Source of the DNA: Patescibacteria group bacterium
GTDB lineage: Bacteria > Patescibacteriota > Patescibacteriia > JAHIZJ01
Direction of reading: 5' to 3'
NCBI GenBank assembly: GCA_041661625.1
Contig: JBAZUB010000002.1
Coordinates: 28,059 to 92,058, forward strand
Length of the DNA: 64,000 nt
Shown: piece after piece, positions 12,937 to 27,993 of the stretch
How positions within the stretch are numbered: position 1 is the first letter of the stretch
Layout of the letters: the number at the start of each line of letters is the position of its first letter
Position numbers and translations under genes: made by a program
Notes under the pieces: generated by a model
Databases searched by the model: none
Seen by the model: only the letters and a program-made list of their open reading frames with translations
Told to the model about the DNA's origin: nothing

Positions 12937-13740
12937 TTAACCGGGGCCGAGCGGGTTGTGGTTGCTCATGACTTCGGTATAATCGTCAAAGCCATCGCCA
13001 TCTGTATCACGATTGAATGGATCCGTGCCAATCGTCCGTTCGGAAGCATCGGTCAAGCCATCCTGGTCGGAGTCGACGTTAGCGTTGACGTTTGAGTTGC
13101 TATTGGTGTTGCTATTGAGGTTACTGTTAGCATTGGCATTAATATTGCTATTCAAGTTGGAAGAATTAACGTTCGAATTCCGGTCCGCGTTTGTGTTGGC
13201 GTTTCCGTTCAGATTCGTGTTGGCGTTAACGTTTTCATTCGAGTTGCCGTTAGTGTTGCTGGTATTCGTATTATCATTTAAGTTCTGATTGAGATTGCCG
13301 TTTAAGTTGCTGTTCAAATTGGAATTCAGGTTGGCATTGCTATTCCGATTGAAATTTATATTGCCAGTCGTATTGGTATTGAGATTTGAGTTATTAACAG
13401 TGGAATTCGTGTTGGAATTATCATTTTTAGCGGTCAGGTTTTGAAATAAGAAAATGGCTCCGATGACCACTCCAGCCAGGATGAGCAGAATTATTACACC
13501 AATAATAATGTACTTCTTGCGGCCGGAATTGTCCGAATATTGGGGTTCGGGCGGGCCGCCGGCAGGAGTTGTCGGCGGAACGTTTACATTCGGCATGGTG
13601 GGTGACATTGGCGGCTGCCCAATAGGAGGGGGCGTATTGCCCGGTGGGGTGATATTGGCGGGATCGTCGAACATGCTATTGTTGTTTATTTGATAACTAC
13701 TAATACTATACCACAAACGCACCATTGAAACAAAATCCAC
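12937..13740 (-). CDS. membrane-anchored Asn-rich low-complexity protein with C-terminal thrombospondin-type-3-like Ca-binding repeats
   Basis: 267 aa; Pro-rich N-term, one TM (IIIGVIILLILAGVVIGAIFLF), long N-x-N repeats, C-term DSDQDGLTDASE..DTDGDGFDDYTE. Confidence 0.5.
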   Translation of the reverse strand: MDFVSMVRLWYSISSYQINNNSMFDDPANITPPGNTPPPIGQPPMSPTMPNVNVPPTTPAGGPPEPQYSDNSGRKKYIIIGVIILLILAGVVIGAIFLFQNLTAKNDNSNTNSTVNNSNLNTNTTGNINFNRNSNANLNSNLNSNLNGNLNQNLNDNTNTSNTNGNSNENVNANTNLNGNANTNADRNSNVNSSNLNSNINANANSNLNSNTNSNSNVNANVDSDQDGLTDASERTIGTDPFNRDTDGDGFDDYTEVMSNHNPLGPG

Positions 13741-13958
13741 GGTTGACTAAGCGGGCAGAAAACGCTAGATTTAAGAGACTCTTATTACCCAGAACCATAA
13801 CATGTCCTTCTCAGTCGGCATTGTACGAACACAACCCAACATTTAGAAAGAGCAACAAACCCCAAGTTGATACCCTTTTTCTTCGAAATCAAGCTTCCCG
13901 CCACACGTAGTGCTGTGGTGCACAAAGAAACTATACATTCATAGACCATAAATAAAAT

Positions 13959-13982
13959 CTCCCTTAGCTGGGAGTTTTTTGG
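13959..13982. terminator. Hairpin terminator (ctccc ttagct gggag + TTTTTT), likely 3' end of the minus-strand sugar operon or of a short plus-strand transcript
   Basis: 5-bp stem plus T6 on plus strand; A/T-rich on other side. Confidence 0.45.
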
Positions 13983-14121
13983 TTGTAATGATACTCTTAA
14001 TTGCCGACTGTTAATGAAATAGCTAACTGGATGGCAGAAAACAGCCTCTACTCCCAACCTCGTTACACTATTTCTTTACCCACCTTACGCTTACCCCAAT
14101 GGTATATGGTTGCTCGAAGCT

Positions 14122-15285
14122 TTATAAGCGGTCATCAAGATCGTATATGGTATTTATTTTTCCAGACAATACGCTTATGAATCTAGGTTTAGTCGATAAC
14201 TGACGAATAACTGTCGGTCTAGAATCATCAATTTCAGAAGCTAATAGTATTGGCTTGATCGCAAACATCGACCCCTGATAGTCAAGATTGATATTTGACA
14301 CCAAATATTTTTTCGACAAACTTACCATATTCTCCCAGGCTGTAGGCGGTTTTGCGATACACGTGTTGCAATTGCCTAATTGCCGCGAAGAGCAAGTACC
14401 GTGCGATTTGGGCTGGCAAGGGAAGGACGGCTGTTCATCATATGACGCCTGTTGGGGTGTGTGCATAACCGAGGTCAACGTGTGTAATGGTTGTAAACCA
14501 AAAGGCATGATGGAAAAATATAAACCATCAGCAACAGTAAGGCCAGCGCCTTTCATTTTGCTTGATGCTTTACATAAACATACCTCGCACAACTCATATT
14601 TTATTTTGTATTTCTCAAGACCAAACCTAGCGTTTATTTGGTTCACGCTAGCATACGTGGCGTTTACAACATAAGAAGTCCTGATACTGTGCGTATTATC
14701 AAATTCTATTACGTAGTCCGTGTCATCTTTAACGATGTTGGTTAGCTCTTTATTTAGCTCAATGCTAATGTTGCTCTTGCGTGAGATTCTTTTTCGTAAT
14801 TCGTTTTTCACTTTAAAAAAATCAAAGCTACACTCCTTCGTTTCGAACGCGGCCAGAGTGGAGCCTGGCACAAAGTATCTATCAGTATCACATGCGCGAA
14901 TCGGAATGCCAACTTTTAGACAAAATTGGATATATTCATCAGGGCTAGTTTTCGACCTGTTTGATGAAATCGCATATATTTGTTTAAACGACGCGTTAAT
15001 TGATGATTCAAAATCTCTAGCAAATCTATTGTAGTAATACGCCGTTTTTTCCGCTGTTTCTATACTACGAGGATAATGATACCCATTATGTAGTCTGGCT
15101 TGATTCACCATACTGGCCCTACCGAAAATATTGGAATCAATATCGACCACGATAATGTGTTTGTGCTTTTTGGCCAATACTAACGCAGCGTAAAGACCAT
15201 ATATACCAGCCCCCAATATTATTACATCACATTGTTTACGGTTCTTGATGCTTACTCGCTTGTGCATACCAGTGCTTTGCGGCAT
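14122..15285 (-). CDS. FAD-dependent oxidoreductase (Rossmann GAGIYG)
   Basis: 387 aa; dinucleotide-binding motif VIILGAGIYGLYAALVLA near N-term; last gene of AT-rich sugar operon. Confidence 0.55.
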   Translation of the reverse strand: MPQSTGMHKRVSIKNRKQCDVIILGAGIYGLYAALVLAKKHKHIIVVDIDSNIFGRASMVNQARLHNGYHYPRSIETAEKTAYYYNRFARDFESSINASFKQIYAISSNRSKTSPDEYIQFCLKVGIPIRACDTDRYFVPGSTLAAFETKECSFDFFKVKNELRKRISRKSNISIELNKELTNIVKDDTDYVIEFDNTHSIRTSYVVNATYASVNQINARFGLEKYKIKYELCEVCLCKASSKMKGAGLTVADGLYFSIMPFGLQPLHTLTSVMHTPQQASYDEQPSFPCQPKSHGTCSSRQLGNCNTCIAKPPTAWENMVSLSKKYLVSNINLDYQGSMFAIKPILLASEIDDSRPTVIRQLSTKPRFISVLSGKINTIYDLDDRL

Positions 15286-16093
15286 TTATTGATTCAGTTA
15301 AATCATCCGATAGATTATCGGGCTTTGGCACCATTTCTACTGAGTAATAACCGGCATATGATTTATTCATTGTTAGCGTCACTACTTCCTGGTATATTGC
15401 ATTATCTACTTGAACACGTCCCAGACCTGGACTGCTAAAATGAACATGTCCGATCATCCCCACAGCGTTGGCAACCACGGTTTGTGGATCCTCCTGATTA
15501 CTTATCATAGTGCCGGTATCTAAATTTATAGCTAAACCGGGTTGATGAACGTGGTTTAGAAACTCGATTACCTCCGATGAGGTAGTGAATATATCATTCT
15601 CTTGTTGACGTGGTATTGGTTCGATACAAAAAGACATGTTGTGTTTGTGAGCAAATCCTCCAATATTAACGAAGAATGCTGCAACCAAGTCATTTGTATC
15701 TTGATTTAAGTTGGGATTTAATGCGCGGTGGCGTGGAGACCCAAACACAATAGCCCGTATGCCCAGTTGTGCGCCGATTGATATAAGATGTTTGATATAT
15801 CGGAGCGCGAAGTTATAGTCATCTTTATTTTGAAATATCCTGAGATCAGGATAGTTATATAGAAGCGATTGCATTGCTACTGGCCGTAAATTATTCCGTT
15901 GTAGCGTTCTTAAATAGCTTTCAATGTCTGCTCTGCTTACACTCTCGGGTTTATCCCATATGCGCGTTGGACAGATTTCCAAATAAGAAACATCCAATTG
16001 GGTGAGCAATGAGTAAATTTGATCATTAACTGATTTATCCCAAGCAATATTGGATACTGCCAAGTGAATTGTGTCAGCATTATTGTTAGTCAT
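15236..16093 (-). CDS. sugar-phosphate isomerase/epimerase (xylose-isomerase-like TIM barrel)
   Basis: Start reassigned to MTNNNADTIHLAVSNIAWDK (ATG at 16091-16093) because the longer ORF overlaps the upstream gene and its terminator; TIM-barrel AP-endonuclease/xylose isomerase-like signature residues. Confidence 0.5.
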   Translation of the reverse strand: MTNNNADTIHLAVSNIAWDKSVNDQIYSLLTQLDVSYLEICPTRIWDKPESVSRADIESYLRTLQRNNLRPVAMQSLLYNYPDLRIFQNKDDYNFALRYIKHLISIGAQLGIRAIVFGSPRHRALNPNLNQDTNDLVAAFFVNIGGFAHKHNMSFCIEPIPRQQENDIFTTSSEVIEFLNHVHQPGLAINLDTGTMISNQEDPQTVVANAVGMIGHVHFSSPGLGRVQVDNAIYQEVVTLTMNKSYAGYYSVEMVPKPDNLSDDLTESINAAKHWYAQASKHQEP

Positions 16094-16111
16094 TTGTATA
16101 ATTGTAGTACC

Positions 16112-16159
16112 GTGTGGACAAAAAAGCAAAAAAAAGACGGGGAACATTGCCATTCCCCG
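16112..16159 (-). terminator. Rho-independent terminator on minus strand (cggggaa cattgcca ttccccg followed by TCTTTTTTTTGCTTTTTT)
   Basis: 7-bp stem and long U-tract immediately downstream of the P-loop kinase gene. Confidence 0.55.
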
Positions 16160-16188
16160 ACTAACCTTCGGATTACCGCTGATGTCCC

Positions 16189-16749
16189 CTATGCAACTTC
16201 GGGGCAATGTTCGGCGATCATCGCATCCGCCGCGCGATAGAGATCGTCGATCGTTCCCGAGTTGTCGATCAGCACATCGGCTACCGGCTCGATGTCGGGC
16301 ACGTGCCAAGCGACTTTCCGCTCATCACGTGGCAGCAGATAGGCCTTGGCCTCCTCGATGCTGGCCAAGTTCTCGCGAATGACCTGCCGTTCGAGGCGGA
16401 TCTCCTGAGACATGTTCACCCAGACGATGACGGCCCGGCTGCCAATCTGCTCGCGCATATAGAGACCGAGGTCTGGCCCATAGAGACTCTCCAGGCAGCA
16501 GCATTCGATACCGTTCTCGTTCACCCACCGTAGGAACTGCTTCGTGAACTCCTCGTGAAGCCAACGGGGGCGCTCAAACGCGGCTCGCTCGTTCCACTCC
16601 ACGAAGTCACCGGAGTGTCCCTCGTTTTCCATCACCATCCTCATGAATGTGACGATCTTGAGCCTCGTGATGCCCTTCGAATCGAGGTAGCGGCCGAACG
16701 TGCTCTTTCCAGATTCGCTCATGCCGCCGATCAGGAACACCTTCTTCAT
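16189..16749 (-). CDS. P-loop nucleoside/nucleotide kinase family protein
   Basis: 186 aa; Walker A GGMSESGKST near N-term; GC-rich relative to neighbours. Confidence 0.55.
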   Translation of the reverse strand: MKKVFLIGGMSESGKSTFGRYLDSKGITRLKIVTFMRMVMENEGHSGDFVEWNERAAFERPRWLHEEFTKQFLRWVNENGIECCCLESLYGPDLGLYMREQIGSRAVIVWVNMSQEIRLERQVIRENLASIEEAKAYLLPRDERKVAWHVPDIEPVADVLIDNSGTIDDLYRAADAMIAEHCPEVA

Positions 16750-17174
16750 GATCCCTCCTCCATCAATAGTCGGGTCTGTTCTTCAGATTCCGCCGGCGTG
16801 TGAGGCCCGTGTGCCACGTTTCTGATAATGCTTTCAGCCCATAGCATGCGGATACCGGAAGCCGGCTCCCTCTTGCCGATGATTTCTCGCACTTTGCGAA
16901 TGGCGTCTTCACCCTCCACGATGAAGATGTGTAAGGGTGCCGAAGCCATGAACTCGACCAGCTCAGGAAAGTAGTCACGGTGAGAAAATTCTCGATACAG
17001 TTCGGTGGCAGTTGCGACCGTGATCGTCTTCCTTCTCTCCTCGACGACTCTTAACTGAGCAGCCACTATCAATTCCCGGATCCTGTCAACCAGCCCCTTA
17101 GCTACCCCGTCGGGTTTCACTAGGAGCATCGACCTTTCCACGGCGCACATTACTCCCTCCCTTGGGGTAACCAC
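16746..17174 (-). CDS. nucleoside-diphosphate-kinase-like protein (divergent)
   Basis: 142 aa; ERSMLLVKPDGV and NVAHGPHTPAESE resemble NDK N-terminal and NxxHGSD regions but active-site motif is altered. Confidence 0.5.
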   Translation of the reverse strand: MVTPREGVMCAVERSMLLVKPDGVAKGLVDRIRELIVAAQLRVVEERRKTITVATATELYREFSHRDYFPELVEFMASAPLHIFIVEGEDAIRKVREIIGKREPASGIRMLWAESIIRNVAHGPHTPAESEEQTRLLMEEGS

Positions 17175-17923
17175 TGGCTTGGCCAGTCTATGTCTACTGA
17201 GACCAGTCGGCCATCAGGAAGCAAAGCAAACTCCCATGTCGGCATCGGTGCGATACGCGCGAGTTGTGCGAACGCATACGAATGAGACTGAAGCGTGTGG
17301 CATATGCTCCGGATAACCGTCGCAGGCAATATGTTGGCATATCCGACCTCGCGTAGTCGATATGAAGCCTCGATGTAGTCTGAGTAGTCGAGTGTGAATT
17401 GCTGTAATTCTCCCGTATACGCGGGCAATTGCCGATCGAACAGAATCTTGTTCGGCAAAACACCCCGCTGCATCTCAAGCACCTGACGATCACCATCGAG
17501 ATACAGCACATGTCCCGCGATGGATTCCGGTCCCCAAATCACCGGGGTAAACTCGACCCAGGTAGCTGGTCGCAGTTTTAGAATCTCTTGGAGCGCCCGA
17601 CCTTGATCGATAATGCGTTTACGACCCTGGTCGTCTCTCCACTCCACCGTATGATCGCTTTGAATCTGGAACAGAGGCGGAACCGCAGTCAACATCGGTT
17701 TCTCGGAAACGATTACCAGGAATGCCTCACCGTGGGCGAGGTGGTCATGGTAAATCCGAGACACTTGATCCTGATCACTTACGGATACAGCACATGGTTC
17801 ACCATCAGATGGTAGACCAAGACCTCTCATCAATGCTCGTTTCTGGAGACGTATCGGGAGAGCTAGGTCAATCCCAAACTCTCGGGAATGGCTGACCAGA
17901 AAATCGTCTTTCATGACGGTCAT
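17150..17923 (-). CDS. hypothetical protein (257 aa), GC-rich, in kinase/NDK block
   Basis: ORF in operon context; no motif recognised. Confidence 0.4.
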   Translation of the reverse strand: MTVMKDDFLVSHSREFGIDLALPIRLQKRALMRGLGLPSDGEPCAVSVSDQDQVSRIYHDHLAHGEAFLVIVSEKPMLTAVPPLFQIQSDHTVEWRDDQGRKRIIDQGRALQEILKLRPATWVEFTPVIWGPESIAGHVLYLDGDRQVLEMQRGVLPNKILFDRQLPAYTGELQQFTLDYSDYIEASYRLREVGYANILPATVIRSICHTLQSHSYAFAQLARIAPMPTWEFALLPDGRLVSVDIDWPSQWLPQGRE

Positions 17924-17999
17924 TAGCCCCTCCTTTGAGGTTTGAGGTTTTTTGTCACGACTATCCGGCAGTTTTCACCGGTAGCGATTGTCTACTATG

Positions 18000-18764
18000 T
18001 CAAAGGTCATAAAGAGCGAATAGACCACTGTATGGCTTTTTTGTAATTTTGTCAAGGTCCTTCTGGTTATGCAGGCTCCACCAATTACCACGATAACGAT
18101 AGACCTGTAGTGATTTAGGATCACTAGAAAATAGGTCTTCGTTCACTTCATCGAGATCGCTGGGAATGTTTTGTGCTGTGTACTGTCTCAATAACTGTGG
18201 TCGAATAATCATGCAGCCGGGTGACCACATATGTTGTAGCTTCGTCCGTCTAGATGATTTAATTTGATTCACTCCTTTAGCTGTGCCTACGCTGATTACC
18301 TTTCCTTGGCTAAACATAAGTTGTAAATGCGTGTCCGCTTCCTTATGTCTGTTGGTTACAAGTAATACGCTTTTGTCTGATGGTAATCCATGTATAATCA
18401 ACTTCGTAAAAAGATCCGGCGATAAGAGTACGTTGCCATCGCAATACAAGAATGGCTTTGTCCATTTCATTGTTGCCGCGCGTAGACGAGCAGGAAGGCT
18501 CATGTTCGGCGTATATTTTCCAAAGTGTATGCTGACCCCCCGTGATTTCCAATACGCCCGCGTCCTTGCAGCACTGCGATTGTGTTCTGGCCAGCCAAGA
18601 AGTACTACTGACCGTACGTTAGCTTGTTTTGCCATGGCAATGAGGTAATACAATAGCGGCTGGTTGGCGATTGGATAAAGCACTTTTGGGCCACGGTATT
18701 TTATTTTCTTAAAATAGTCGGAAATGCGTTGCCCGCGTCCCCCGACCGCAATTACCATTTTCAT
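18000..18764 (-). CDS. sugar-1-phosphate nucleotidylyltransferase (GlmU/RmlA-like N-terminal fold)
   Basis: 254 aa; MKMVIAVGGRGQRI...PKVLYPIANQPLLYYLI matches NTP-transferase signature. Confidence 0.65.
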   Translation of the reverse strand: MKMVIAVGGRGQRISDYFKKIKYRGPKVLYPIANQPLLYYLIAMAKQANVRSVVLLGWPEHNRSAARTRAYWKSRGVSIHFGKYTPNMSLPARLRAATMKWTKPFLYCDGNVLLSPDLFTKLIIHGLPSDKSVLLVTNRHKEADTHLQLMFSQGKVISVGTAKGVNQIKSSRRTKLQHMWSPGCMIIRPQLLRQYTAQNIPSDLDEVNEDLFSSDPKSLQVYRYRGNWWSLHNQKDLDKITKKPYSGLFALYDL

Positions 18765-18807
18765 AGTATGTATCTAAAGTAATATATAACTGTTGATTAT
18801 CTATTTG

Positions 18808-19521
18808 CTATTGGGGGTATTCTGGTTTCCATCCAATAGCATTCTTTACGCTGTGTATTCGTCCGGGATTATTGGAAACGGCATAAAATGTCGTAAAACG
18901 TCCCGGTATCTTTTTTATCTGCACAGCTTTTAAGATCACACTCACACAATCCTGATGATATAATATCACGCGATCATATAAGGGATCTTCGTTGTATCGA
19001 ATCTCGTTTGTCGTATTCACACCCCCGAAACGAATACAAACAACTTCGAGGTTGTGATGTACCGCATAATAATTTCCCAAGCGTTCACCATACACCTTAC
19101 TGGCTCCGTAGGGTGTATCAGGAATTGGGATCGTACTTGTTGTTTTCTCACCTTCACGCATTAAATGGTATGTATCTGCGTGAACAGAGCTGGCAAGAAT
19201 AACTCGTCGTACACCCGCTGCTACTGCAGCTCGGAAAATATTTTCCAGCATTACTTTGTTGTCGGCTACACTGTGCTCGTTTGGATAATCTTCAGCAACG
19301 TTCCAGGCTAAATGGATGAGCACATCGTGGCCTTTAACGAGCGTATACAGCTTATGATATTCCCGGGCGATGTTAACACGTTTAACCGATTTGTTACTCT
19401 TCTGATTTATATCAATGCAGGTAACGGGGTATTTACGCAGTAAAACAGGGCAGATAATTGTGCCAATATTACCCAAGGCTCCGGTTACCACTACTCGGGG
19501 ATGCGAACGATATAATCTCAT
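18808..19521 (-). CDS. NAD-dependent epimerase/dehydratase (SDR family)
   Basis: 237 aa; VVVTGALGNIGTII Rossmann motif, YGASK catalytic Y-x3-K. Confidence 0.7.
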   Translation of the reverse strand: MRLYRSHPRVVVTGALGNIGTIICPVLLRKYPVTCIDINQKSNKSVKRVNIAREYHKLYTLVKGHDVLIHLAWNVAEDYPNEHSVADNKVMLENIFRAAVAAGVRRVILASSVHADTYHLMREGEKTTSTIPIPDTPYGASKVYGERLGNYYAVHHNLEVVCIRFGGVNTTNEIRYNEDPLYDRVILYHQDCVSVILKAVQIKKIPGRFTTFYAVSNNPGRIHSVKNAIGWKPEYPQ

Positions 19522-21122
19522 CGATTTATTTCTGCAAATGCTCTCAGTACTGCAGATATTGTGGCATCAAGATCCTCCCTATCTAACCCGGGGTTTACAT
19601 AGAGATTAAATAGCCGCTTGGTGACCTCTTGGGATACCGGACAATCATTTACGTGTGAGCTTTTTAACAACTCCACTTCGGGCAGAGACAGCGGGTAAAG
19701 CTTTTTTATCGGGATTCCTAATTGCATTACCCGATTAAGAAACATATCACGCTTCTCTATCAGGCCTGCTGGCAGTAATCCAGTCAGGTAAAAATAGGCG
19801 TGTTCAGAATTTGGATCTGTTTTCTGAAAAGTGATTCCACTTCCCGCTATCTTTTTCTGCAGATAATTTGCATTATTTCGGCGTATTTGATTATTGACAT
19901 CAAGCCGTTTATTTTGCTCAATAGCAATCGCGGCCTGAATATCTGTAAGTTGGTAATTAAAACCCAGGCGATTATAGTCATACGCATCCAGATCTTCTTG
20001 ATTGATGCCATTATTTGCGTCCGAACGTATATGGCTGTAGTACTTTTCATTATTTGTGGCTATTAAGCCACCCTCCCCGCAAACTATATGTTTCGTTTGA
20101 TAAAGACTTGTGCAGATGATGTCACCATACGAACCAACGTACTTTCCATTATATCTCGCGCCCGTAGCTTGGGCGCAATCCTCTATCAGCACTAACTTAT
20201 GTTTATCGCAGATTATCCTCAGCGCGTTCAAATTGACTGGCTGACCATACATATGGACAACGATAACTGCCTTAGTGTGCTTGGTGATTTTCTTTATAAC
20301 GTCTTTGGGATCAATATTAAAAGTTTCAGCCTCAATGTCAGCGAATATCGGTTTCGCTCCAACTTGTAATACCGTTGAGCAATCCGCAATATTGGCCAGT
20401 GCGGGGACGATCACTTCATCGTTGGATTGAAGATCTAAAGCAGAAAGAGCAAGATGTAGCGCGGATGTACCAGAATTGACGGCATTGACAAAACGCTGTG
20501 ATAACATACGAGATATCACATCTTGAAATTCGCGGACTACTGGACCTCCTTCCGGTCTCGATAATATTCCGGAATGTAGCACTCGTACAACAGCCTCGGT
20601 TTCTTCGTCGCCGATCAGATGCGCATTTATTTTTTGCATCATTTGAGCAATATGCGCTTTGGCATCGTTGTTATCCGGTTGTTTACTACTATAGTGTTCA
20701 TGAATCATATCTCGGACTGCGTTTGGCCGAAGTTCATAGTTTCTGATATCGACAACATCAATCCAGACTAACTCATAGGTACCCACATAATGAGTTCCGT
20801 ATTGATACTCGGGTCCGAAAGCATTTCCCAGAATGCCACCCGTTATTTCGCAAAGAAAAAATAATTCAGTCTGACCCAGTGTGTCTGGATGTCCCGACGA
20901 TTGCTTAGTAAATAGCTCTTTTACTCTTATGTCCACACCAAGCTCTTCGTGGCACTCTCTCTGAACGGCTTGTTCTGGTGTTTCATTATTGTCGACTCCT
21001 CCGCCAGGAAATACCCAGTATGCCTCTTGTCCGGGTTTGGTTCTTTTTATAACTAACACGTGGTTTTGATGGATTATCACCGCTCGCGCTCTTAATTTAT
21101 CCTTCGTTTTTTGATTCGTCAT
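19518..21122 (-). CDS. fusion protein: N-terminal Nudix hydrolase + C-terminal DegT/DnrJ/EryC1/StrS PLP-dependent sugar aminotransferase
   Basis: 534 aa; Nudix box GGGVDNNETPEQAVQRECHEELGV; DegT motifs AVNSGTSALHLAL, VIVVHMYGQP, IEDCAQATGA, TKHIVCGEGG. Confidence 0.8.
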   Translation of the reverse strand: MTNQKTKDKLRARAVIIHQNHVLVIKRTKPGQEAYWVFPGGGVDNNETPEQAVQRECHEELGVDIRVKELFTKQSSGHPDTLGQTELFFLCEITGGILGNAFGPEYQYGTHYVGTYELVWIDVVDIRNYELRPNAVRDMIHEHYSSKQPDNNDAKAHIAQMMQKINAHLIGDEETEAVVRVLHSGILSRPEGGPVVREFQDVISRMLSQRFVNAVNSGTSALHLALSALDLQSNDEVIVPALANIADCSTVLQVGAKPIFADIEAETFNIDPKDVIKKITKHTKAVIVVHMYGQPVNLNALRIICDKHKLVLIEDCAQATGARYNGKYVGSYGDIICTSLYQTKHIVCGEGGLIATNNEKYYSHIRSDANNGINQEDLDAYDYNRLGFNYQLTDIQAAIAIEQNKRLDVNNQIRRNNANYLQKKIAGSGITFQKTDPNSEHAYFYLTGLLPAGLIEKRDMFLNRVMQLGIPIKKLYPLSLPEVELLKSSHVNDCPVSQEVTKRLFNLYVNPGLDREDLDATISAVLRAFAEINR

Positions 21123-21445
21123 GGTGGTGTTTTTATAAAGAGTGGTTATTTATATTGAATTCCCCGTTTTTACAAAAGATTCATACACATCGTATAGACT
21201 GATGATTTGCTGTACATATAGAAATTATTACTAAACAACATATATTATATAGGTTATTCGACTAATTGGACAGTGGTAAACAAAAGCTGATTCCACAATA
21301 AATCTGGTGGTATTACGATATTCAAAAGATGGCAAATACTAGCTCCCAGTCTGATTCACACCGAAAAAGCGAGGCTTTAATATGCCCAGTATGTATGGAA
21401 TTATTCCGTATCATTGTTCTGTTCTGTATGAAAACGCCAAAAATG

Positions 21446-21504
21446 TGTTATAATGCAGACAACACATAAACATATTGACAAAATTACACTATTTCTGCTA
21501 AGGT
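21446..21504 (+). promoter_or_regulatory. Candidate promoter region for Panacea operon (extended -10 TGtTATAAT at 21446-21454; alternative TTGACA-18-TAAGGT at 21475-21504)
   Basis: Motifs read directly in AT-rich intergenic region upstream of 21527. Confidence 0.4.
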
Positions 21505-21526
21505 TTCGGTCATTAAGCAAGAAACT

Positions 21527-22030
21527 ATGACCCCAGTAGCGGGAACAAAACAACAAGAGAAGGTCACCTATCAGGACGTAGCTGATTACTTCTTGGCATT
21601 GGGAAATGAAACAGGTGAGCCAATATCCAATCTTAAGCTCCAGAAGCTTGTCTACTATGCACAAGCTTGGCATCTAGCAAATACATCGGAGCCTCTATTT
21701 AATGCTAACTTTCAAGCTTGGGTACATGGTCCCGTTATACCTGAGTTGTACCACAAGTTAAAGACGTATGGATCAGCGCCTATTCAGAGTAACGCCGTCT
21801 TAAATGAAGTAAAAAACAGATTTGATTCCAATACACTAACTTTCTTAGAACAGGTTGCAGATGTGTATATGCCTAGAAGTGCTTATGAATTGGAGTTGAT
21901 GACACATATGGAGGATCCGTGGATTCTCGCGAGAGTTGGGCTTGAGCCAAACCAAGGAAGCGAAAATACTATCTCTGAGGAAATCATGGCTAGATTCTAT
22001 GGGGCAAAAATACACAGTAGAACCAAGTAG
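21527..22030 (+). CDS. Panacea-domain (DUF4065) protein, SocA/PanA-like antitoxin
   Basis: 167 aa; YFLALGNETGEPISNLKLQKLVYYAQAWHLA...FQAWVHGPVIPELY matches DUF4065 core. Confidence 0.75.
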   Translation: MTPVAGTKQQEKVTYQDVADYFLALGNETGEPISNLKLQKLVYYAQAWHLANTSEPLFNANFQAWVHGPVIPELYHKLKTYGSAPIQSNAVLNEVKNRFDSNTLTFLEQVADVYMPRSAYELELMTHMEDPWILARVGLEPNQGSENTISEEIMARFYGAKIHSRTK

Positions 22031-22439
22031 CATCCCTCAGAGAACTGAATTAGTTAATCCAACGACTGTTAATCCAAATCAGAACGTTTCTTTTAATTTT
22101 CGTCCTTTATGTACTAAAGGCGGTAAGTTTGAGTACAACAATAGGGAGCGAGGATATTTTGTTAAACTCCTCGAACGACTGCGCGATCTTTCGACAATGA
22201 GTAGGGGGCAACTTATAGCACCAGGCGGAAAAGGATTACGGTGTCATCCTATACGGTTCACCGACCAAGGAGTGAGTGAATCGTCATTTGGTATACCTGG
22301 GCAAGACATTGATGAAGATGCGTGGCAATTTGAAATCTCTTCTAATAAGCACGGTCGTGTTCATGGATACTTTGTAGGTAGCGTATTTTATATAGTGTGG
22401 CTTGACCCTGATCATGCACTTTATCCTAGGCAGCGATAA
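21999..22439 (+). CDS. hypothetical protein (146 aa), overlaps antitoxin-like gene by 32 nt; candidate toxin/partner
   Basis: Start chosen at MGQKYTVEPSS; C-terminal HGRVHGYFVGSVFYIVWLDPDHALYP; stop abuts SIR2 start (TAAATG). Confidence 0.45.
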   Translation: MGQKYTVEPSSIPQRTELVNPTTVNPNQNVSFNFRPLCTKGGKFEYNNRERGYFVKLLERLRDLSTMSRGQLIAPGGKGLRCHPIRFTDQGVSESSFGIPGQDIDEDAWQFEISSNKHGRVHGYFVGSVFYIVWLDPDHALYPRQR

Positions 22440-23420
22440 ATGGGTACACACAATTTAGTATTGTTAACCGGTGCTGGCTTCTCCAAAAACTTTGGAGGTT
22501 TTTTGGCTGCAGAAATGTGGTCGCATATATTTAATCACCCATTAACTAAAAGACACGCTGAATTGCGTAAGTTGCTAATGGCTGATCAGGATTATGAATC
22601 AGTATACACACTGGTTATGACTGGTAATGGTTTTTCTCCTGAGTGCCGAAACGATTTCAACATTGTTGTTGAGCAAGCCTATAAAGCGTTAGACGATACA
22701 TTGAGAAAATGGCAATTCACGGGCGAGCTAAATCAAGTAAATACTTATGGTATCGGCAAGCTGTTAAGCCTTTTTAATTCCCCCCATGATCGCTGCTATT
22801 TCTTTACATTAAACCAAGATCTATTCATGGAAAGATGGTGGGGATACAGGGCACCGAGTGTTCGTTGGTTTCCTGAACAATTTTACTCTCTTCATGGCGC
22901 TGAATTGGAACATAAGGATTTCATAAAACTACCGTCATCTATGGATGAAAAAACTGTGAATGAAGCGATAGCACTACATAGCGGCTTAACGTATATTAAA
23001 ATACACGGTTCTTACGGATGGCTATCTTCTGATGGTAAAAACTTAATGGTGATTGGAAAGGATAAAACGATCGCCATTTCAGCAGAGCCAGTATTGCGGA
23101 GATATTTTGATATATTCAAAAAGGTAATGAGCGAGGGACAAAAAAAGCTGCTAATAATTGGATATGGATTTGGGGATTCTCACATTAACCAAGTTATTGC
23201 CGATGCAGTCCGGAATAGAGGATTAAAGGTATGTATTGTTTCAACAAGTCCATATAAGGACTTATATTCTCGTATAGAACAAAACTATCCAGATGCCTTA
23301 GACATCCTTGATATCGGATTGGATGGCTATTTCCCTTACAGTCTTGCGCAAGTCTTTCCTGGTGATCAATCTGAAACCGTATACTTCGAGGAGATCAAAC
23401 GTAATCTTTCCGGCATCTAA
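22440..23420 (+). CDS. SIR2_2-domain protein (putative NAD+-consuming defence effector)
   Basis: 326 aa; LVLLTGAGFSKNFGG, FFTLNQDLFMERW (cf. TTNYD), KIHGSYGW, LLIIGYGFGDSHINQ correspond to SIR2_2 (PF13289) conserved blocks. Confidence 0.7.
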   Translation: MGTHNLVLLTGAGFSKNFGGFLAAEMWSHIFNHPLTKRHAELRKLLMADQDYESVYTLVMTGNGFSPECRNDFNIVVEQAYKALDDTLRKWQFTGELNQVNTYGIGKLLSLFNSPHDRCYFFTLNQDLFMERWWGYRAPSVRWFPEQFYSLHGAELEHKDFIKLPSSMDEKTVNEAIALHSGLTYIKIHGSYGWLSSDGKNLMVIGKDKTIAISAEPVLRRYFDIFKKVMSEGQKKLLIIGYGFGDSHINQVIADAVRNRGLKVCIVSTSPYKDLYSRIEQNYPDALDILDIGLDGYFPYSLAQVFPGDQSETVYFEEIKRNLSGI

Positions 23421-24871
23421 ATTTTACGCCATTTTTCTTCCCGGTCACGTTGCTCATATAGTTCAAAAAGTCCTTGTAAAATACTATAAAAATCAGAGAC
23501 CAACATACCCCACCCAATTTCAATGTGTTTTACGTCAAAGTGGAACTCGGGTTTCTCCTGACCCCACACGACGTCCACAGGTTGGAGGCTTTTAATGATA
23601 CTCAAGTTTCCTCCGATAATTGAGTCAAGCATTTTTTGTAAACCAGATAGCCTCGTTTCAAAATCATCTATGGAGTCGCCATATCGTTTCTGCAATTCAA
23701 GTTTATCCGAAAGTCCTTGCTTTATTATGTTTACTATATGAAATACTGCATTTTTATATAGTTCTTTATTGCCTGAGTGATCAGTGTCTGCATTGAGTGA
23801 GTAGCTCAATCTCCGAAAGTCTAGGACTTGCTCTCGATCTTTGAGCTGCTCGACATTAAAATTAAGGAGTCTTTCTATTCGATGCTTGTTACTTCCGAGA
23901 TAATGCTCGATCGGCTTCCAAAGTAGTACCTCAAACGGAGTCTCATCCGGCCATAGCTTCATTAGATGAAGCTTTGTTTTTAAGCAATAGTCAAAAACTA
24001 TTTGAGCAAGTGTTATATGTGAAGATTGCGGAAATGAATAATCTAAAGAAATAACTTTCTCACCGTGTATTATTTTACTTCTGAGTTGGTAAAAAGAGTC
24101 TGACCAGTTCGCGATTTCTTTCTTCTGTCCCAGAAGAAGTTGTATGCGGTCGCCCATTTCCTGTCCTTTACGACTATACTGTTGAATATTCAAGAGGGTT
24201 TCTAATGCGACTCCTAGGGAAATAATCATGTCTTCAGAAGTGACTAGTGGATCGGCAACATGGGAACGATTATACCAATATACTGATCTAAGAATCCTTT
24301 CTGCCTCAAGTTTTTCATCTTTCGTTCCGTTTGCTCTCCTTTCATTAAGTGTGCAAAGTGCTGAAAATATATCTTTTGATACCTCTCGGCTTACGTTTGT
24401 TACATTGATATAAAACGGGGTTTGTATTTTTGTTTCATCAATCATTAGTATATGGATACCGCGTCTTGAGTGCAATGAAAGGCCGCCACTTGTTTTATCT
24501 AGATTGAGTTCATAGGAATCCGATTTGAAATTCTCATAGGAGGACGGAAAAAACCTTTTCTGATGGCTTAAGTTTGCATAAGCTACAATGTTTGTTGCTG
24601 TAATTAACTCATCGTCGACTTTTTTATCGTATTGAGCAAAATTGTCTTTGCCGTCGCTAAGCCTTGATGCAATAACAGGATTTGCTAGCTGACTGTTATC
24701 GATAAAACCTCGATAAATTTTTACCAACTGATCAACACGTTGAGCGGCGTTTGAGATTTTCCCAAAACGCTTTTGTTTTTCTTTTAGATATGGCCAAAAG
24801 CAAATATCACCAATAGTAACAGACTCGTCGAGTTCTAGATAGGGGAATATTGTAAATGCTATTTTAGTCAT
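23417..24871 (-). CDS. hypothetical protein (484 aa) with HEPN-like R-x4-HG motif (FYQLRSKIIHGEKV)
   Basis: Large ORF converging on SIR2 gene with 4-nt 3' overlap; motif-level only. Confidence 0.5.
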   Translation of the reverse strand: MTKIAFTIFPYLELDESVTIGDICFWPYLKEKQKRFGKISNAAQRVDQLVKIYRGFIDNSQLANPVIASRLSDGKDNFAQYDKKVDDELITATNIVAYANLSHQKRFFPSSYENFKSDSYELNLDKTSGGLSLHSRRGIHILMIDETKIQTPFYINVTNVSREVSKDIFSALCTLNERRANGTKDEKLEAERILRSVYWYNRSHVADPLVTSEDMIISLGVALETLLNIQQYSRKGQEMGDRIQLLLGQKKEIANWSDSFYQLRSKIIHGEKVISLDYSFPQSSHITLAQIVFDYCLKTKLHLMKLWPDETPFEVLLWKPIEHYLGSNKHRIERLLNFNVEQLKDREQVLDFRRLSYSLNADTDHSGNKELYKNAVFHIVNIIKQGLSDKLELQKRYGDSIDDFETRLSGLQKMLDSIIGGNLSIIKSLQPVDVVWGQEKPEFHFDVKHIEIGWGMLVSDFYSILQGLFELYEQRDREEKWRKI

Positions 24872-24884
24872 TATAAGTTAGCGA

Positions 24885-26723: not shown

Positions 26724-27123
26724 TTCTATTATTTTTTAGAGTTGAGAATCTCATGAATCGGTCAATAATTGGTTGTCGTTCAGCAATCAACAGATCAAGC
26801 TCTTCATCCGAAAGATCGGCAAAGGGGTCGCTTATGGCGACCTTAGTTGCTTTGTAGGACCCTTTTAGCTTATAGGCCTTATCCAACCCAGCTTCACGGG
26901 CCCGCCAATCGTGATTCTTAAGCAGCCCTTTATGGACGTTTAAGAGTGTTTCGTCGGGTAGGTGCTTATCCATTAACTCCTGCCATCCCTTGCTTCTGGT
27001 GAGCTCCTGGGGCTTCTCAGCTGAACGTGAACTGTACCCCGCCTCGCGCATGGCAGAGCTGACCGATTTTCGGGGTTTTTCGGAGATTATTCGAGCGACG
27101 CGTAGTTGTTTTTGGGTAGCCAT
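26713..27123 (-). CDS. phage terminase small-subunit-like HTH protein
   Basis: 136 aa; N-terminus MATQKQLRVARII...SAMREAGYSSRSAE resembles Terminase_2 motif (LTxKQ..F....A...AGYS). Confidence 0.4.
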   Translation of the reverse strand: MATQKQLRVARIISEKPRKSVSSAMREAGYSSRSAEKPQELTRSKGWQELMDKHLPDETLLNVHKGLLKNHDWRAREAGLDKAYKLKGSYKATKVAISDPFADLSDEELDLLIAERQPIIDRFMRFSTLKNNRNVK

Positions 27124-27169
27124 ATAGAGTCATTATACACCCAAAACAACGGCTTGTTTTAACCATTAT

Positions 27170-27700: not shown

Positions 27701-27750
27701 AGACGTGTTATTAGTTATTTAGAGTTGGTTACATTTATCACGATAAACAA

Positions 27751-27884
27751 CCAGCAGATATTGCTGGCGCCGGTAAATCACAAAGCCCGCCGCCAGCGAT
27801 GACCTTTCGGCCACCTGCACCCCTTTCGGGATACAACCACTGCTGGTGCTCTGACGACGAGCCCAATATCCAGCAGTGGTTTTT
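27751..27884 (+). ncRNA. candidate small structured RNA (GC-rich islet ending in intrinsic terminator ccactgctgg..ccagcagtgg+TTTTT)
   Basis: GC-rich hairpin-dense ~135 nt in AT-rich intergenic region; 10-bp stem + U5 at 27837-27884. Confidence 0.25.
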
Positions 27885-27993
27885 GTACCATGCCACGGTT
27901 TGCGCCGTGGTTTAGGCACCAAATTGTAAGTAATTCCCTAATATCGGAATTACCTATATAATTGTACTATATTTTGTCGACATTTTCAATAAT

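What the first reader, a model, noticed from the sequence alone, without database searches (positions are those of the whole stretch)
14122..21122. AT-rich nucleotide-sugar modification operon with a Nudix-DegT aminotransferase fusion
Eight co-oriented genes, mostly overlapping, encode an FAD oxidoreductase, a TIM-barrel sugar-phosphate isomerase, a P-loop kinase, an NDK-like protein, an unknown protein, a sugar-1-P nucleotidyltransferase, an SDR epimerase/dehydratase and a 534-aa fusion. The fusion joins a canonical Nudix box (GX5EX7REUXEEXGU) to a complete DegT/DnrJ/EryC1 PLP aminotransferase. Fusing an NDP-sugar aminotransferase to a Nudix pyrophosphatase is unusual. It suggests coupled amination and hydrolysis or proofreading of an NDP-amino-sugar. 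The pathway could make a surface glycan or a modified nucleotide and may be island cargo, given its low GC.
Basis: partly seen in the sequence, partly recalled or inferred. Interest (0 to 1): 0.65.

Follow-up and report, generated by a model that had tools for sequence, protein, structure and literature searches.

The report
Nudix-linked amino-sugar cassette in Patescibacteria
The eight genes are real and form a conserved, mobile and so far uncharacterised gene cassette of tiny uncultured (Patescibacteria) bacteria that most likely makes an aminated sugar on a recyclable nucleotide handle, with the unusual Nudix-aminotransferase fusion having arisen at least twice from two neighbouring genes.

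Summary
Eight co-oriented minus-strand genes at 14122-21122 encode Nudix::DegT (534 aa), a short SDR, a sugar-1-P-type nucleotidyltransferase, an orphan protein, NDK, a P-loop NMP-type kinase, a xylose-isomerase-like TIM barrel and a DAO-type flavoenzyme. All catalytic motifs are intact.

The fusion is not an artefact. It recurs in independent assemblies. In 23 of 23 related loci Nudix lies directly upstream of DegT (9 fused, 14 separate). Tree position and junction sequence indicate at least two independent fusions.

The "unknown" protein has an ATP-grasp fold and belongs to a family of about 40-50 clusters. The collinear core Nudix-DegT-SDR-NTF-ATPgrasp-NDK-kinase occurs in about 48 metagenomic loci, mostly Patescibacteria. 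TIM+DAO is swapped for a radical-SAM/SPASM enzyme in seven loci. A second Nudix type is fused to the nucleotidyltransferase or to a GT2 in relatives.

Best model (about 0.4): a sugar is loaded on a nucleotide, made keto, aminated, then cleaved off by Nudix, and NMP is recycled to NTP. Main rival (about 0.2): a puromycin/ADG-like amino-nucleotide.

It is not a standard perosamine pathway. In the window the cassette sits in an 18-kb low-GC island with a serine recombinase. The product is unknown. I class it as a new variant of a known kind.

The parts
20703..21122 (-). Nudix domain (residues 1-140) of the 534-aa fusion protein. MutT-like, with a canonical Nudix box at residues 41-63.
   Evidence: PF00293 scores 61 bits. 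NCBIfam MutT scores 47 bits. The box is GGVDNNETPEQAVQRECHEELGV. It is 43-50% identical to the free-standing or fused Nudix1 of related cassettes.
20631..20702 (-). Linker of the fusion (residues 141-164). It is 16 residues longer than the junction in the 522-aa fused clade.
   Evidence: Junction alignment. In unfused relatives a stop codon, 5-17 bp of spacer and a start codon lie at this position.
19518..20630 (-). DegT/DnrJ/EryC1 PLP aminotransferase domain (residues 165-534). The catalytic Lys344 is present.
   Evidence: PF01041 scores 308.5 bits over the full profile length. All NCBIfam equivalogs are below cut-off (PseC 211 against 423). Nearest PDB entries score 170-180 bits: 7b0m, 7b0d and perosamine synthase. 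The motif SLYQTKHIVCGEGG is present.
18808..19521 (-). Short (237 aa) extended-type SDR of the sugar 1-dehydrogenase kind.
   Evidence: PF01370 scores 59.9 bits. Azf scores 75 bits over the full length. Uronate dehydrogenase is the best PDB match. Haloferax L-arabinose 1-dehydrogenase is 32% identical over 95% of the query.
18000..18764 (-). Nucleotidyltransferase of the sugar-1-phosphate type (NTF).
   Evidence: The GGRGQR motif is present and NTP_transf_3 scores 24 bits. A profile search of PDB finds ADP-Glc pyrophosphorylase family, GlmU, HddC and UGPase. The gene is conserved in every cassette. In L079, L090 and L092 it is fused to a second Nudix type.
17150..17923 (-). Orphan ATP-grasp-fold protein (UNK), a probable kinase or amide ligase.
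16746..17174 (-). Nucleoside diphosphate kinase. The probable start is 17150.
   Evidence: PF00334 scores 96.5 bits. The NVAHG and KPD motifs are present. It is fused to the downstream kinase in most relatives.
16189..16749 (-). P-loop kinase of the NMP-kinase/AdkA-like type.
   Evidence: P-loop GMSESGKS is present. AAA_18 and CoaE matches are weak. PDB 3lw7, an adenylate-kinase-related protein, is matched. It is 55-58% identical to the C-terminal half of the NDK::kinase fusions.
16138..16159 (-). Terminator-like hairpin followed by T8, in the 95-bp gap between the kinase and the TIM-barrel gene. This is the variable slot of the cassette.
   Evidence: Consensus scan. Its function was not tested.
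15236..16093 (-). Xylose-isomerase-like TIM-barrel enzyme (isomerase, epimerase or dehydratase class).
   Evidence: PF01261 scores 63.5 bits. IolO-like scores 47 bits. It is always paired with the DAO gene, including in glycan loci of Clostridium and in Rhodobacter and Psychrobacter plasmids.
14122..15285 (-). DAO/GlpO-type FAD oxidoreductase with four invariant cysteines (C290, C298, C306, C309).
12937..31513 (.). Low-GC genomic island that carries the cassette. It also holds an Asn-rich TSP3-repeat protein, a SocA_Panacea toxin-antitoxin pair, a SIR2_2 protein, large unknown proteins and a large serine recombinase at 29762-31513.
   Evidence: GC is 0.38-0.43 against 0.50-0.58 in the flanks. 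Pfam of neighbours. Housekeeping FolD/SHMT lie on one side and YchF/RecA/FtsK/RpoBC on the other.

Best explanation
This is a self-contained, horizontally mobile cassette that builds an aminated sugar-type building block on a nucleotide handle and then recovers the nucleotide. In most relatives the product is probably also methylated.

Proposed flow:
1. The ATP-grasp protein probably acts as a kinase and supplies a sugar phosphate.
2. The nucleotidyltransferase joins the sugar phosphate to an NTP, giving an NDP-sugar.
3. A keto (possibly deoxy-keto) group is made by the FAD oxidoreductase with the TIM-barrel isomerase/dehydratase. In some relatives a radical-SAM/SPASM enzyme does this instead. 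The short SDR helps as an oxidoreductase.
4. The DegT domain transaminates the keto group.
5. The Nudix domain, tied to DegT, cleaves the pyrophosphate bond of the nucleotide-linked product or intermediate and releases NMP plus the amino-sugar phosphate.
6. The P-loop NMP kinase and NDK turn NMP back into NTP.

Shown here: gene content, intact catalytic motifs, strict synteny, the recurrent fusions, and the folds. Inferred: the order of steps, the substrate classes and the product.
For: The cassette and the Nudix-DegT link:
- The collinear core Nudix1-DegT-SDR-NTF-ATPgrasp-NDK-kinase is found in about 48 loci.
- Nudix1 lies directly upstream of DegT in 23 of 23 loci, and is fused in 9.
- At least two independent fusions are indicated by the tree and by different junctions.

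Other fusions that tie Nudix to NDP-sugar enzymes:
- NDK is fused to the NMP-type kinase in most loci. That fits a nucleotide leaving the pathway as NMP.
- A second Nudix type is fused to the nucleotidyltransferase (L079, L090, L092) or to a GT2 (L049). Nudix domains are therefore physically tied to three different enzymes whose common ligand is an NDP-sugar or NTP.

Sugar-side evidence:
- The NTF resembles sugar-1-P nucleotidyltransferases.
- The TIM+DAO pair occurs elsewhere inside surface-glycan loci with GtrA/SMR and GT2 genes. That points to sugar chemistry.
- TIM+DAO and the radical-SAM/SPASM gene are mutually exclusive. This fits one shared role in making the keto intermediate.
- No canonical 4,6-dehydratase is present.
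- All catalytic motifs are intact.

From my own knowledge: UDP-kanosamine in the rifamycin AHBA pathway (RifL/K/M) is a precedent for 'nucleotide handle, then release'.
Against: - No enzyme was assayed and the product is unknown.
- The SDR lacks the large NDP-binding C-terminal domain. Its characterised relatives act on C1 of unactivated sugars. That fits poorly with an NDP-sugar substrate.
- Nudix1 is closest to MutT/NudG-type NTP pyrophosphatases rather than to known NDP-sugar hydrolases.
- The window cassette has no glycosyltransferase, flippase or polymerase nearby, so the fate of the product is open.
- The ATP-grasp protein could be a ligase rather than a kinase.
- Making and then hydrolysing an NDP-sugar is unusual.
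Confidence: 0.4

Rival explanations
1. Amino-nucleotide antimetabolite pathway, working like the puromycin/ADG module. An NTP is oxidised on the ribose by the SDR and transaminated by DegT. The toxic amino-NTP (or keto-NTP) is at once cut to the NMP by the attached Nudix. The ATP-grasp protein, NMP kinase and NDK supply or re-phosphorylate nucleotides. The methyltransferase, ATP-grasp ligase, peptidases and HAD phosphatase of relatives tailor the product. ABC exporters export it.
For: - The puromycin, A201A, cystocin and ADG clusters share a Nudix (Pur7/AdgD), an aminotransferase (Pur4/AdgC), a dehydrogenase (Pur10/AdgB) and a phosphatase (PMC11641026; PMC9239236). adgC and adgD are neighbours, and the adg operon is also a low-GC island.
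- Nudix1 is MutT/NudG-like.
- Detoxifying a chain-terminating NTP gives a strong reason for recurrent Nudix-aminotransferase fusion.
- A dedicated NMP kinase::NDK suggests a non-canonical nucleotide.
- Accessory genes in relatives: a cytidylyltransferase-like::cytidine/dCMP deaminase, methyltransferases, and in L048 a HAD phosphatase plus M24 and S51 peptidases.
- ABC exporters lie next to the cassette in L002 and L047.
- In the window the cassette lies in an island beside defence genes.
Against: - The dehydrogenase is an SDR, not the Gfo/Idh/MocA (RifL-like) type of Pur10.
- There is no phosphatase in the window.
- The always-present nucleotidyltransferase, its fusion to a Nudix, and the GT2::Nudix fusion are unexplained.
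- The TIM+DAO pair otherwise belongs to glycan loci.
- There are no PADLOC defence hits.
- No direct sequence comparison with Pur4/Pur7 was possible.
Confidence: 0.2
2. The aminated moiety is not a nucleotide-linked hexose but a small phospho-polyol, cyclitol or sugar acid. Examples are DHAP to serinol phosphate, or inosose to inosamine. The flavoenzyme or SDR makes the ketone and DegT aminates it. The product is then CDP-activated by the nucleotidyltransferase or amide-linked by the ATP-grasp enzyme. CMP released on transfer is recycled by the kinase and NDK.
For: - DAO is structurally closest to glycerol-3-phosphate oxidase and L-2-hydroxyglutarate-type enzymes.
- The TIM barrel is closest to IolO and keto-acid-sugar isomerases.
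- The SDR is closest to sugar C1 dehydrogenases.
- DegT relatives include scyllo-inosose, 2-deoxy-scyllo-inosose and NtdA aminotransferases.
- In the C. jejuni capsule a PLP transaminase makes serinol-P from DHAP, an ATP-dependent amidoligase attaches it and a HAD phosphatase finishes (PMC11800397).
- An NMP kinase is what a CMP-releasing (CDP-alcohol or CMP-sugar) cycle needs.
- The accessory deaminase fusion is cytidine-related.
Against: - This reading gives no clear role to Nudix1 or to its obligatory link with DegT.
- NTF similarity is to sugar-1-P transferases as much as to CDP-alcohol enzymes.
- All similarities are weak and below family cut-offs.
Confidence: 0.15
3. Ordinary O-antigen or capsule pathway, such as GDP-perosamine, pseudaminic acid or legionaminic acid. 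The Nudix would be a GDP-mannose-hydrolase-like regulator that happens to be fused.
For: Some sources label close DegT homologues 'perosamine synthetase'. Perosamine synthase is among the best PDB matches.
Against: - There is no 4,6-dehydratase (Gmd/PseB/RmlB type), no NeuB-like synthase and no acetyltransferase, flippase or polymerase.
- All NCBIfam equivalogs are far below cut-off (PseC 211 against 423, LegC 206 against 420).
- The cassette DegT clade (more than 400 bits) is sharply separated from the next homologues (329 bits or less).
- The ATP-grasp, NDK and kinase genes are foreign to those pathways.
Confidence: 0.03
4. The fusion is an assembly or frameshift artefact.
For: None was found.
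Against: - The same ORF is found in ENA, NCBI and Logan assemblies.
- Sixteen further clusters of 521-523-aa fused proteins come from many samples.
- The open reading frame is continuous through a linker that aligns with relatives.
Confidence: 0.01

Closest known systems
Puromycin/A201A/cystocin/ADG 3'-amino-3'-deoxynucleoside module (Pur10/AdgB dehydrogenase, Pur4/AdgC aminotransferase, Pur7/AdgD Nudix, Pur3/AdgE phosphatase)
   Same: A Nudix hydrolase, a PLP aminotransferase and an NAD-dependent dehydrogenase are encoded side by side in a low-GC accessory operon. The Nudix acts on the nucleotide pyrophosphate just before or after amination (PMC11641026, PMC9239236).
   Different: Here the dehydrogenase is a short SDR, not the RifL-like type. 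The window has no phosphatase. The cassette adds an invariant nucleotidyltransferase, an ATP-grasp protein, NDK plus an NMP kinase, and TIM+DAO. Homology of DegT and Nudix1 to Pur4 and Pur7 could not be tested.
NDP-sugar aminotransferase pathways (GDP-perosamine Per, PseC, LegC, ArnB, WecE, DesI)
   Same: A full-length DegT-family enzyme with the catalytic lysine is encoded next to a nucleotidyltransferase and an SDR. Identity to solved members is 30-37%.
   Different: There is no 4,6-dehydratase. Scores are about half of every equivalog cut-off. The DegT forms its own clade. It is obligatorily paired with a Nudix.
Kanosamine routes (RifL/RifK/RifM through UDP-kanosamine; NtdC/NtdA/NtdB through glucose-6-P)
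   Same: The logic is oxidise, transaminate, then remove the activating group to release an amino sugar. NtdA is a detectable DegT relative (130 bits).
   Different: The dehydrogenases and phosphatases belong to other families. Those routes have no Nudix, NDK, kinase or ATP-grasp. The comparison with RifL/K/M rests on my own knowledge.
C. jejuni capsule decoration enzymes (Cj1437 transaminase, Cj1438 ATP-dependent amidoligase, Cj1435 HAD phosphatase; Cj1415-1418 cytidylyl/kinase route to MeOPN)
   Same: These combine a PLP transaminase, an ATP-dependent ligase, a cytidylyltransferase and a P-loop kinase for small phospho-amine decorations (PMC11800397).
   Different: No sequence relationship was shown. 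Those genes lie within a large capsule locus with glycosyltransferases and include no Nudix or NDK.
Three-component polyprenyl-phosphate sugar modification systems (GtrA/GT2/GT-C with FAD oxidoreductases and NAD(P) epimerases; DprE1/DprE2 logic)
   Same: The TIM+DAO pair of the cassette has homologues (29-49% identity for DAO) inside such loci in Clostridium and in Rhodobacter and Psychrobacter plasmids (background in PMC11194591).
   Different: The window cassette has no GT2, flippase or GT-C. The third partner in those loci, a ~310-aa NAD(P) oxidoreductase, is not homologous to the cassette SDR.

Membership tests
DegT/DnrJ/EryC1/StrS aminotransferase family (PF01041) | Full-length match to the family profile above the gathering score | tested here: met
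   308.5 bits against a cut-off of 19.8, covering profile positions 3-359 of 360.
DegT/DnrJ/EryC1/StrS aminotransferase family (PF01041) | Catalytic PLP-binding lysine, as opposed to the histidine of the ColD/E1 dehydratases | tested here: met
   Lys344 lies in SLYQTKHIVCGEGG.
Named NDP-sugar aminotransferase equivalogs (PseC, LegC, RfbH, ArnB, WecE, DesI) | Score at or above the NCBIfam equivalog cut-off | tested here: not met
   PseC 211 against 423.5, LegC 205.6 against 420, RfbH 187 against 423, ArnB 178 against 631, DesI 148 against 650.
Nudix hydrolase superfamily | Nudix box GX5EX7REUXEEXGU and a match to PF00293 | tested here: met
   The box lies at residues 41-63. PF00293 scores 61 bits against a cut-off of 21.1.
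Standard GDP-perosamine pathway (ManC/ManB, Gmd, Per, with or without a Nudix GDP-mannose hydrolase) | An NDP-hexose 4,6-dehydratase (extended SDR of about 320-370 aa) in the cluster | tested here: not met
   The only SDR is 237 aa. GDP_Man_Dehyd matches only partially at 30 bits. The best relatives are sugar C1 dehydrogenases.
Puromycin/ADG-type 3'-aminonucleoside module | Nudix and aminotransferase genes adjacent in one operon with a dehydrogenase | tested here: met
   Nudix1, DegT and SDR are contiguous in all loci.
Puromycin/ADG-type 3'-aminonucleoside module | Pur10/AdgB-type (RifL-like) NAD-dependent NTP 3'-dehydrogenase | tested here: not met
   No such family is present in the cassette. 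The dehydrogenase is an SDR. The Pur10-RifL relation is stated in PMC11641026.
Puromycin/ADG-type 3'-aminonucleoside module | Pur3/AdgE-type monophosphatase | tested here: not met
   There is none in the window. A HAD hydrolase occurs only in the L048 variant.
Puromycin/ADG-type 3'-aminonucleoside module | Orthology of the aminotransferase and Nudix to Pur4/AdgC and Pur7/AdgD | not testable with these tools
ATP-grasp superfamily (for the 257-aa protein) | ATP-grasp fold | tested here: met
ATP-grasp superfamily (for the 257-aa protein) | Sequence-level membership of a described ATP-grasp family | tested here: not met
   No Pfam, NCBIfam, PHROG or PDB sequence match was found. A profile scan of 1.84 billion representatives found only 40 members.
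Nucleoside diphosphate kinase (PF00334) | Profile match and the active-site histidine in NxxHG | tested here: met
   96.5 bits against a cut-off of 27. NVAHG lies at residues 119-123.
Genomic island / integrated mobile element | Compositional break, a recombinase at a boundary, housekeeping flanks, and variable context of the cargo in relatives | tested here: met
   for the window. for the different contexts in relatives. Attachment sites were not sought.
Known anti-phage defence systems (PADLOC) | Match of the cassette proteins to a defence-system model | tested here: not met
   Only a generic Nudix match (PDC-S07, 61.6 bits) and a weak FAD match were found.

The most novel reading that the evidence does not exclude
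The cassette makes a toxic amino-nucleotide or aminonucleoside antimetabolite, analogous to puromycin and ADG but built from unrelated dehydrogenase and kinase parts. The Nudix fusion would be a built-in self-protection step. This would be the first nucleoside-antibiotic-type pathway of Patescibacteria, carried on a mobile island next to defence genes, and possibly used against hosts, competitors or phages.
Probability: 0.2. Interest if true: 0.85.

Novelty: new variant of a known kind. Interest (0 to 1): 0.55.

Why it matters
Patescibacteria (CPR) are ultra-small, mostly uncultured episymbionts with reduced metabolism and no full nucleotide synthesis. Their surface chemistry and any chemical weapons are almost unknown.

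Several features make this cassette a well-defined target for biochemical characterisation:
- It is conserved and mobile, with its own nucleotide activation, cleavage and re-phosphorylation enzymes.
- It has an orphan ATP-grasp family.
- Nudix domains are repeatedly fused to three different NDP-sugar enzymes.
- It offers an oxygen-dependent (FAD+TIM) or oxygen-independent (radical SAM) alternative.

Characterisation could reveal a new amino-sugar route that replaces the canonical 4,6-dehydratase. It could show how nucleotide-poor cells economise on nucleotide handles. In the less likely reading it could reveal a new aminonucleoside.

The recurrent fusions are strong 'Rosetta stone' evidence. 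They can be tested in vitro directly with a handful of recombinant proteins.

Tried and rejected
Searches that gave nothing useful:
- The genome-contig scan with the fusion protein returned only distant DegT genes, because the patterns were too specific.
- PDB sequence searches gave nothing for the 257-aa protein or for DAO.
- Literature searches for PDB codes 7B0D/7B0M, and for a description of this cassette in CPR, found nothing relevant.
- The Pur7 paper is not held.
- Rfam found no riboswitch or leader in or upstream of the operon. There were only two sub-threshold chance hits.
- PADLOC and PHROGs gave no defence-system or phage family beyond generic domains.
- No relatives of the orphan protein occur in IMG/VR viral contigs.
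- The AFDB Foldseek library was unavailable.
- No remnant of the methyltransferase, deaminase or GT2 genes of relatives is present in the window.

Ideas tested and rejected:
- I tested whether the GC-rich middle genes hide a conserved RNA or overlapping gene. Synonymous-site identity is not raised.
- I tested whether the ~310-aa NAD(P) oxidoreductase that accompanies TIM+DAO elsewhere equals the cassette SDR. It does not.
- I rejected the assembly artefact, the standard perosamine, pseudaminic or legionaminic pathway, and a known defence system.

Full report
OBSERVATION. The eight minus-strand ORFs exist as described. Pfam and NCBIfam confirm the following genes:
- a DAO-type flavoenzyme (14122-15285);
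- a xylose-isomerase-like TIM barrel (long ORF 15236-16309; the ENA gene call and the orthologues support a start at 16093, giving 285 aa);
- a P-loop kinase (16189-16749);
- an NDK (16746-17174, probable start 17150);
- a 257-aa protein with no family match (17150-17923);
- a weakly matching nucleotidyltransferase (18000-18764);
- a 237-aa SDR (18808-19521);
- a 534-aa protein with NUDIX (residues 11-86, 61 bits) and a full-length DegT domain (residues 170-525, 308.5 bits).

The motifs expected for activity are all present. These are the canonical Nudix box at 41-63, the DegT catalytic lysine, GxxGxxG and YxxxK in the SDR, the P-loop, NxxHG in NDK, GGxGxR in the transferase and GxGxxG in DAO.

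The 'AT-rich' label is only partly right. Five genes are 40-44% GC. The three middle genes are 52-58% GC.

THE FUSION IS REAL AND RECURRENT. The exact protein lies on a 268-kb ENA contig. Near-identical copies exist in Logan and NCBI assemblies, and the organism is labelled 'Patescibacteria group bacterium'. Sixteen further clusters of 521-523-aa Nudix::DegT proteins (51-53% identical) come from JGI, ENA, NCBI and Logan samples.

The closest unfused DegT proteins (56-59% identical over the domain, mostly labelled Patescibacteria, Kerfeldbacteria, Komeilibacteria or WS5) lie in the same cassette. There a 138-150-aa Nudix gene ends 5-17 bp before the DegT start.

In a neighbour-joining tree of the DegT domain the 522-aa fusions form one clade nested among unfused proteins. 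The window protein sits on a separate branch (no bootstrap was run). Its junction carries 16 extra residues. The simplest reading is two independent fusions of adjacent genes.

THE CASSETTE. I used the orphan 257-aa protein as a marker. Look-ups and one metagenome scan gave about 48 distinct loci. I annotated them against cassette proteins.
- The core order is collinear wherever the contigs reach: [HTH]-[methyltransferase]-Nudix1-DegT-SDR-NTF-UNK-NDK-kinase.
- Nudix1 is directly upstream of DegT in 23 of 23 loci (9 fused, 14 separate).
- NDK and the kinase are one 320-344-aa protein in most loci. They are separate in the window and a few others.
- Downstream there is a variable slot. It is empty in the window, where a terminator-like hairpin with a T8 run lies at 16159-16138. 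In other loci it holds a cytidylyltransferase-like::cytidine/dCMP deaminase fusion, or a second Nudix type with a GT2, separate or fused (495 aa in L049).
- The TIM-DAO pair then follows.
- Seven loci (L050, L083-L088) carry a radical-SAM/SPASM gene next to Nudix1-DegT, and none of them shows TIM or DAO. No TIM/DAO locus has the radical-SAM gene.
- In L079, L090 and L092 the nucleotidyltransferase is a 401-410-aa fusion with the second Nudix type.
- Other accessories are a TylF-type methyltransferase (L045) and, in L048, an AAA_18 kinase, M24 and S51 peptidases and a HAD hydrolase.

THE INDIVIDUAL PARTS.
- The SDR is short. Its best characterised relatives oxidise C1 of unactivated sugars: Azf (75 bits over the full length), uronate dehydrogenase and Haloferax L-arabinose 1-dehydrogenase (32% over 95%). 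It is not a 4,6-dehydratase.
- DegT scores about half of every NCBIfam equivalog cut-off. It scores 170-180 bits against the best solved structures: a 'sugar aminotransferase', a glutamine-scyllo-inositol transaminase and perosamine synthases. The cassette DegTs (more than 400 bits) are sharply separated from the next homologues (329 bits or less). Specificity therefore cannot be read from orthology.
- Nudix1 is closest to MutT/NudG-type enzymes.
- The kinase weakly resembles archaeal adenylate-kinase-related proteins.
- DAO belongs to a large family with more than 5000 hits, including about 50% identity in Flavobacterium, Paenibacillus and Clostridium. In Clostridium saccharoperbutylacetonicum the TIM-DAO pair lies in a cell-wall polysaccharide locus with RgpF, GtrA, several GT2 genes and an ABC-2 exporter. 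On Rhodobacter and Psychrobacter plasmids it lies with GtrA or an SMR transporter, a GT2 and a conserved ~310-aa NAD(P) oxidoreductase. This ties TIM-DAO to sugar modification for surface glycans (background in PMC11194591).

CONTEXT IN THE WINDOW. Housekeeping genes flank an 18-kb low-GC stretch at 12.9-31.5 kb. On one side are Dus, the Suf genes, an ABC transporter, SHMT and FolD. On the other are YchF, RecA, FtsK and RpoB/C. The low-GC stretch holds an Asn-rich TSP3-repeat protein, the cassette, a SocA_Panacea pair, a SIR2_2 protein, two large unknown proteins and a large serine recombinase.

Related cassettes lie in unrelated contexts, often beside toxin-antitoxin pairs or XRE-type regulators, and sometimes beside ABC exporters. 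The cassette is therefore mobile cargo. It is not found in IMG/VR viral contigs and matches no PADLOC system. The window version is a minimal form, with no trace of the methyltransferase or deaminase genes.

MECHANISM. Fusions usually join enzymes that share an intermediate. In this cassette Nudix domains are joined to the aminotransferase (twice), to the nucleotidyltransferase and to a GT2. NDK is joined to an NMP-type kinase. The only ligand class common to DegT, NTF and GT2 is a nucleotide-linked sugar (or its NTP precursor). An NMP kinase is needed only if the nucleotide leaves as NMP, which is what Nudix cleavage gives.

I therefore favour a handle cycle (confidence about 0.4):
1. sugar phosphate plus NTP gives NDP-sugar (NTF);
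2. a keto group is formed;
3. the keto group is transaminated (DegT);
4. the pyrophosphate is cleaved (Nudix1), giving amino-sugar phosphate plus NMP;
5. NMP goes to NDP and then to NTP (kinase, NDK).

The mutually exclusive TIM+DAO and radical-SAM/SPASM genes probably provide the same step, the keto or deoxy-keto intermediate that a 4,6-dehydratase supplies in classical pathways. From my own knowledge, flavin oxidation followed by a TIM-barrel dehydratase or isomerase such as IolE, and radical-SAM dehydrogenases or dehydratases such as BtrN and AprD4, are known ways to do this. The ATP-grasp protein sits next to the NTF, as sugar kinases often do next to their pyrophosphorylases (own knowledge). 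It may make the sugar phosphate.

The weak points are:
- the small SDR, which looks like a C1 dehydrogenase of free sugars;
- the MutT-like character of Nudix1;
- the absence of any glycosyltransferase in the window;
- the lack of any assay.

RIVALS. The main rival (about 0.2) is an amino-nucleotide pathway working like the puromycin/A201A/cystocin/ADG module. There a dehydrogenase, an aminotransferase, a Nudix and a phosphatase convert ATP or GTP to a 3'-amino-3'-deoxynucleoside, and the Nudix protects the producer (PMC11641026; PMC9239236).
- For it: this model gives the best rationale for a recurrent Nudix-aminotransferase fusion and for a dedicated NMP kinase::NDK. It also fits the deaminase, methyltransferase, peptidase, HAD and exporter accessories.
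- Against it: it leaves the invariant NTF, its Nudix fusion, the GT2 fusion and the glycan-type TIM-DAO pair unexplained. The dehydrogenase family also differs.

A third possibility (about 0.15) is amination of a small phospho-polyol, cyclitol or sugar acid, followed by CDP activation or ATP-grasp amidation. It is prompted by the GlpO-like DAO, the IolO-like TIM barrel, the C1-dehydrogenase-like SDR and the C. jejuni serinol-phosphate precedent (PMC11800397).

A standard perosamine or nonulosonic-acid pathway, and an assembly artefact, are rejected on gene content, scores and replication.

NOVELTY AND SCORE. No paper describing this cassette was found. The parts belong to known superfamilies and the overall logic (activate, oxidise, aminate) is known. 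The new elements are the architecture, the obligatory and repeatedly fused Nudix, the built-in NMP-to-NTP recycling, the orphan ATP-grasp family and the FAD+TIM versus radical-SAM alternative. I rate it a new variant of a known kind, with interest 0.55.

An unexplained extra is that the ATP-grasp, NDK and kinase genes are GC-rich (GC3 0.41-0.78) in every locus, whatever the host composition. The rest of the cassette is AT-rich. There is no excess synonymous conservation in the GC-rich genes.

Noticed in passing
window 16189-17923; also L002, L043-L048: There is a conserved GC mosaic. The ATP-grasp, NDK and kinase genes have GC3 0.41-0.78 in every locus. All other cassette genes have GC3 0.23-0.44. 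This holds whatever the host GC. Synonymous-site identity is not raised, so no hidden RNA or overlapping gene is indicated. It remains unexplained.
   Followed up: partly
window 16138-16159 (minus strand): A strong terminator-like hairpin (9 bp, 5 GC pairs) plus T8 lies in the 95-bp gap between the kinase and the TIM-barrel gene. This is exactly where relatives carry the variable deaminase or Nudix2/GT2 slot. It may split the operon or attenuate TIM-DAO expression.
   Followed up: no
window 12937-31513: An 18-kb low-GC island lies between FolD and YchF. It holds an Asn-rich secreted-looking TSP3-repeat protein (12937-13740), a SocA_Panacea pair (21527-22439), a SIR2_2 protein (22440-23420), two large proteins with no family match (23417-24871 and 24885-26723) and a large serine recombinase (29762-31513). 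It is a possible defence island. Attachment sites were not sought.
   Followed up: partly
L052 8270-12791; L053 6118-13056; L054 2336-8624: There is a widespread uncharacterised module: a ~310-aa NAD(P) oxidoreductase, the TIM barrel, the DAO flavoenzyme, a GtrA or SMR transporter and a GT2. It occurs in a Clostridium cell-wall polysaccharide locus and on Rhodobacter and Psychrobacter plasmids. It looks like a lipid-linked sugar modification system. The DAO family has more than 5000 members and four invariant cysteines.
   Followed up: partly
L079 8709-9941; L090 605-1810; L092 1350-2555; L049 7079-8566: A second Nudix type (motif W.FPKG) is fused to the cassette nucleotidyltransferase (401-410 aa) or to a GT2 (495 aa). 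In L079 its Nudix box is degenerate, so it may only bind the ligand.
   Followed up: partly
L050 7270-8340; L083-L088: A radical-SAM/SPASM gene replaces the TIM+DAO pair in seven cassette variants. This may be an oxygen-independent alternative for the same step.
   Followed up: partly
L058 (3314 bp): This variant has the order methyltransferase-Nudix1-NTF-ATPgrasp-NDK, with DegT and SDR missing.
   Followed up: no
L079 858-5481: Here the cassette directly follows seryl-tRNA synthetase, an alpha/beta hydrolase, a Mur ligase and a FemAB-family transferase. This may hint at a cell-wall link.
   Followed up: no
window 15236-16309: The 357-aa TTG-started ORF over-extends the TIM-barrel gene. Its N-terminal 72 residues overlap the kinase gene and are absent from orthologues. 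The start at 16093 is preferred.
   Followed up: yes
L002 14576-15409; L050 6432-7280: The accessory 277-282-aa protein of relatives is itself a fusion. It joins an N-terminal cytidylyltransferase-like (HIGH-type) domain to a C-terminal cytidine/dCMP deaminase domain. It is absent from the window.
   Followed up: partly
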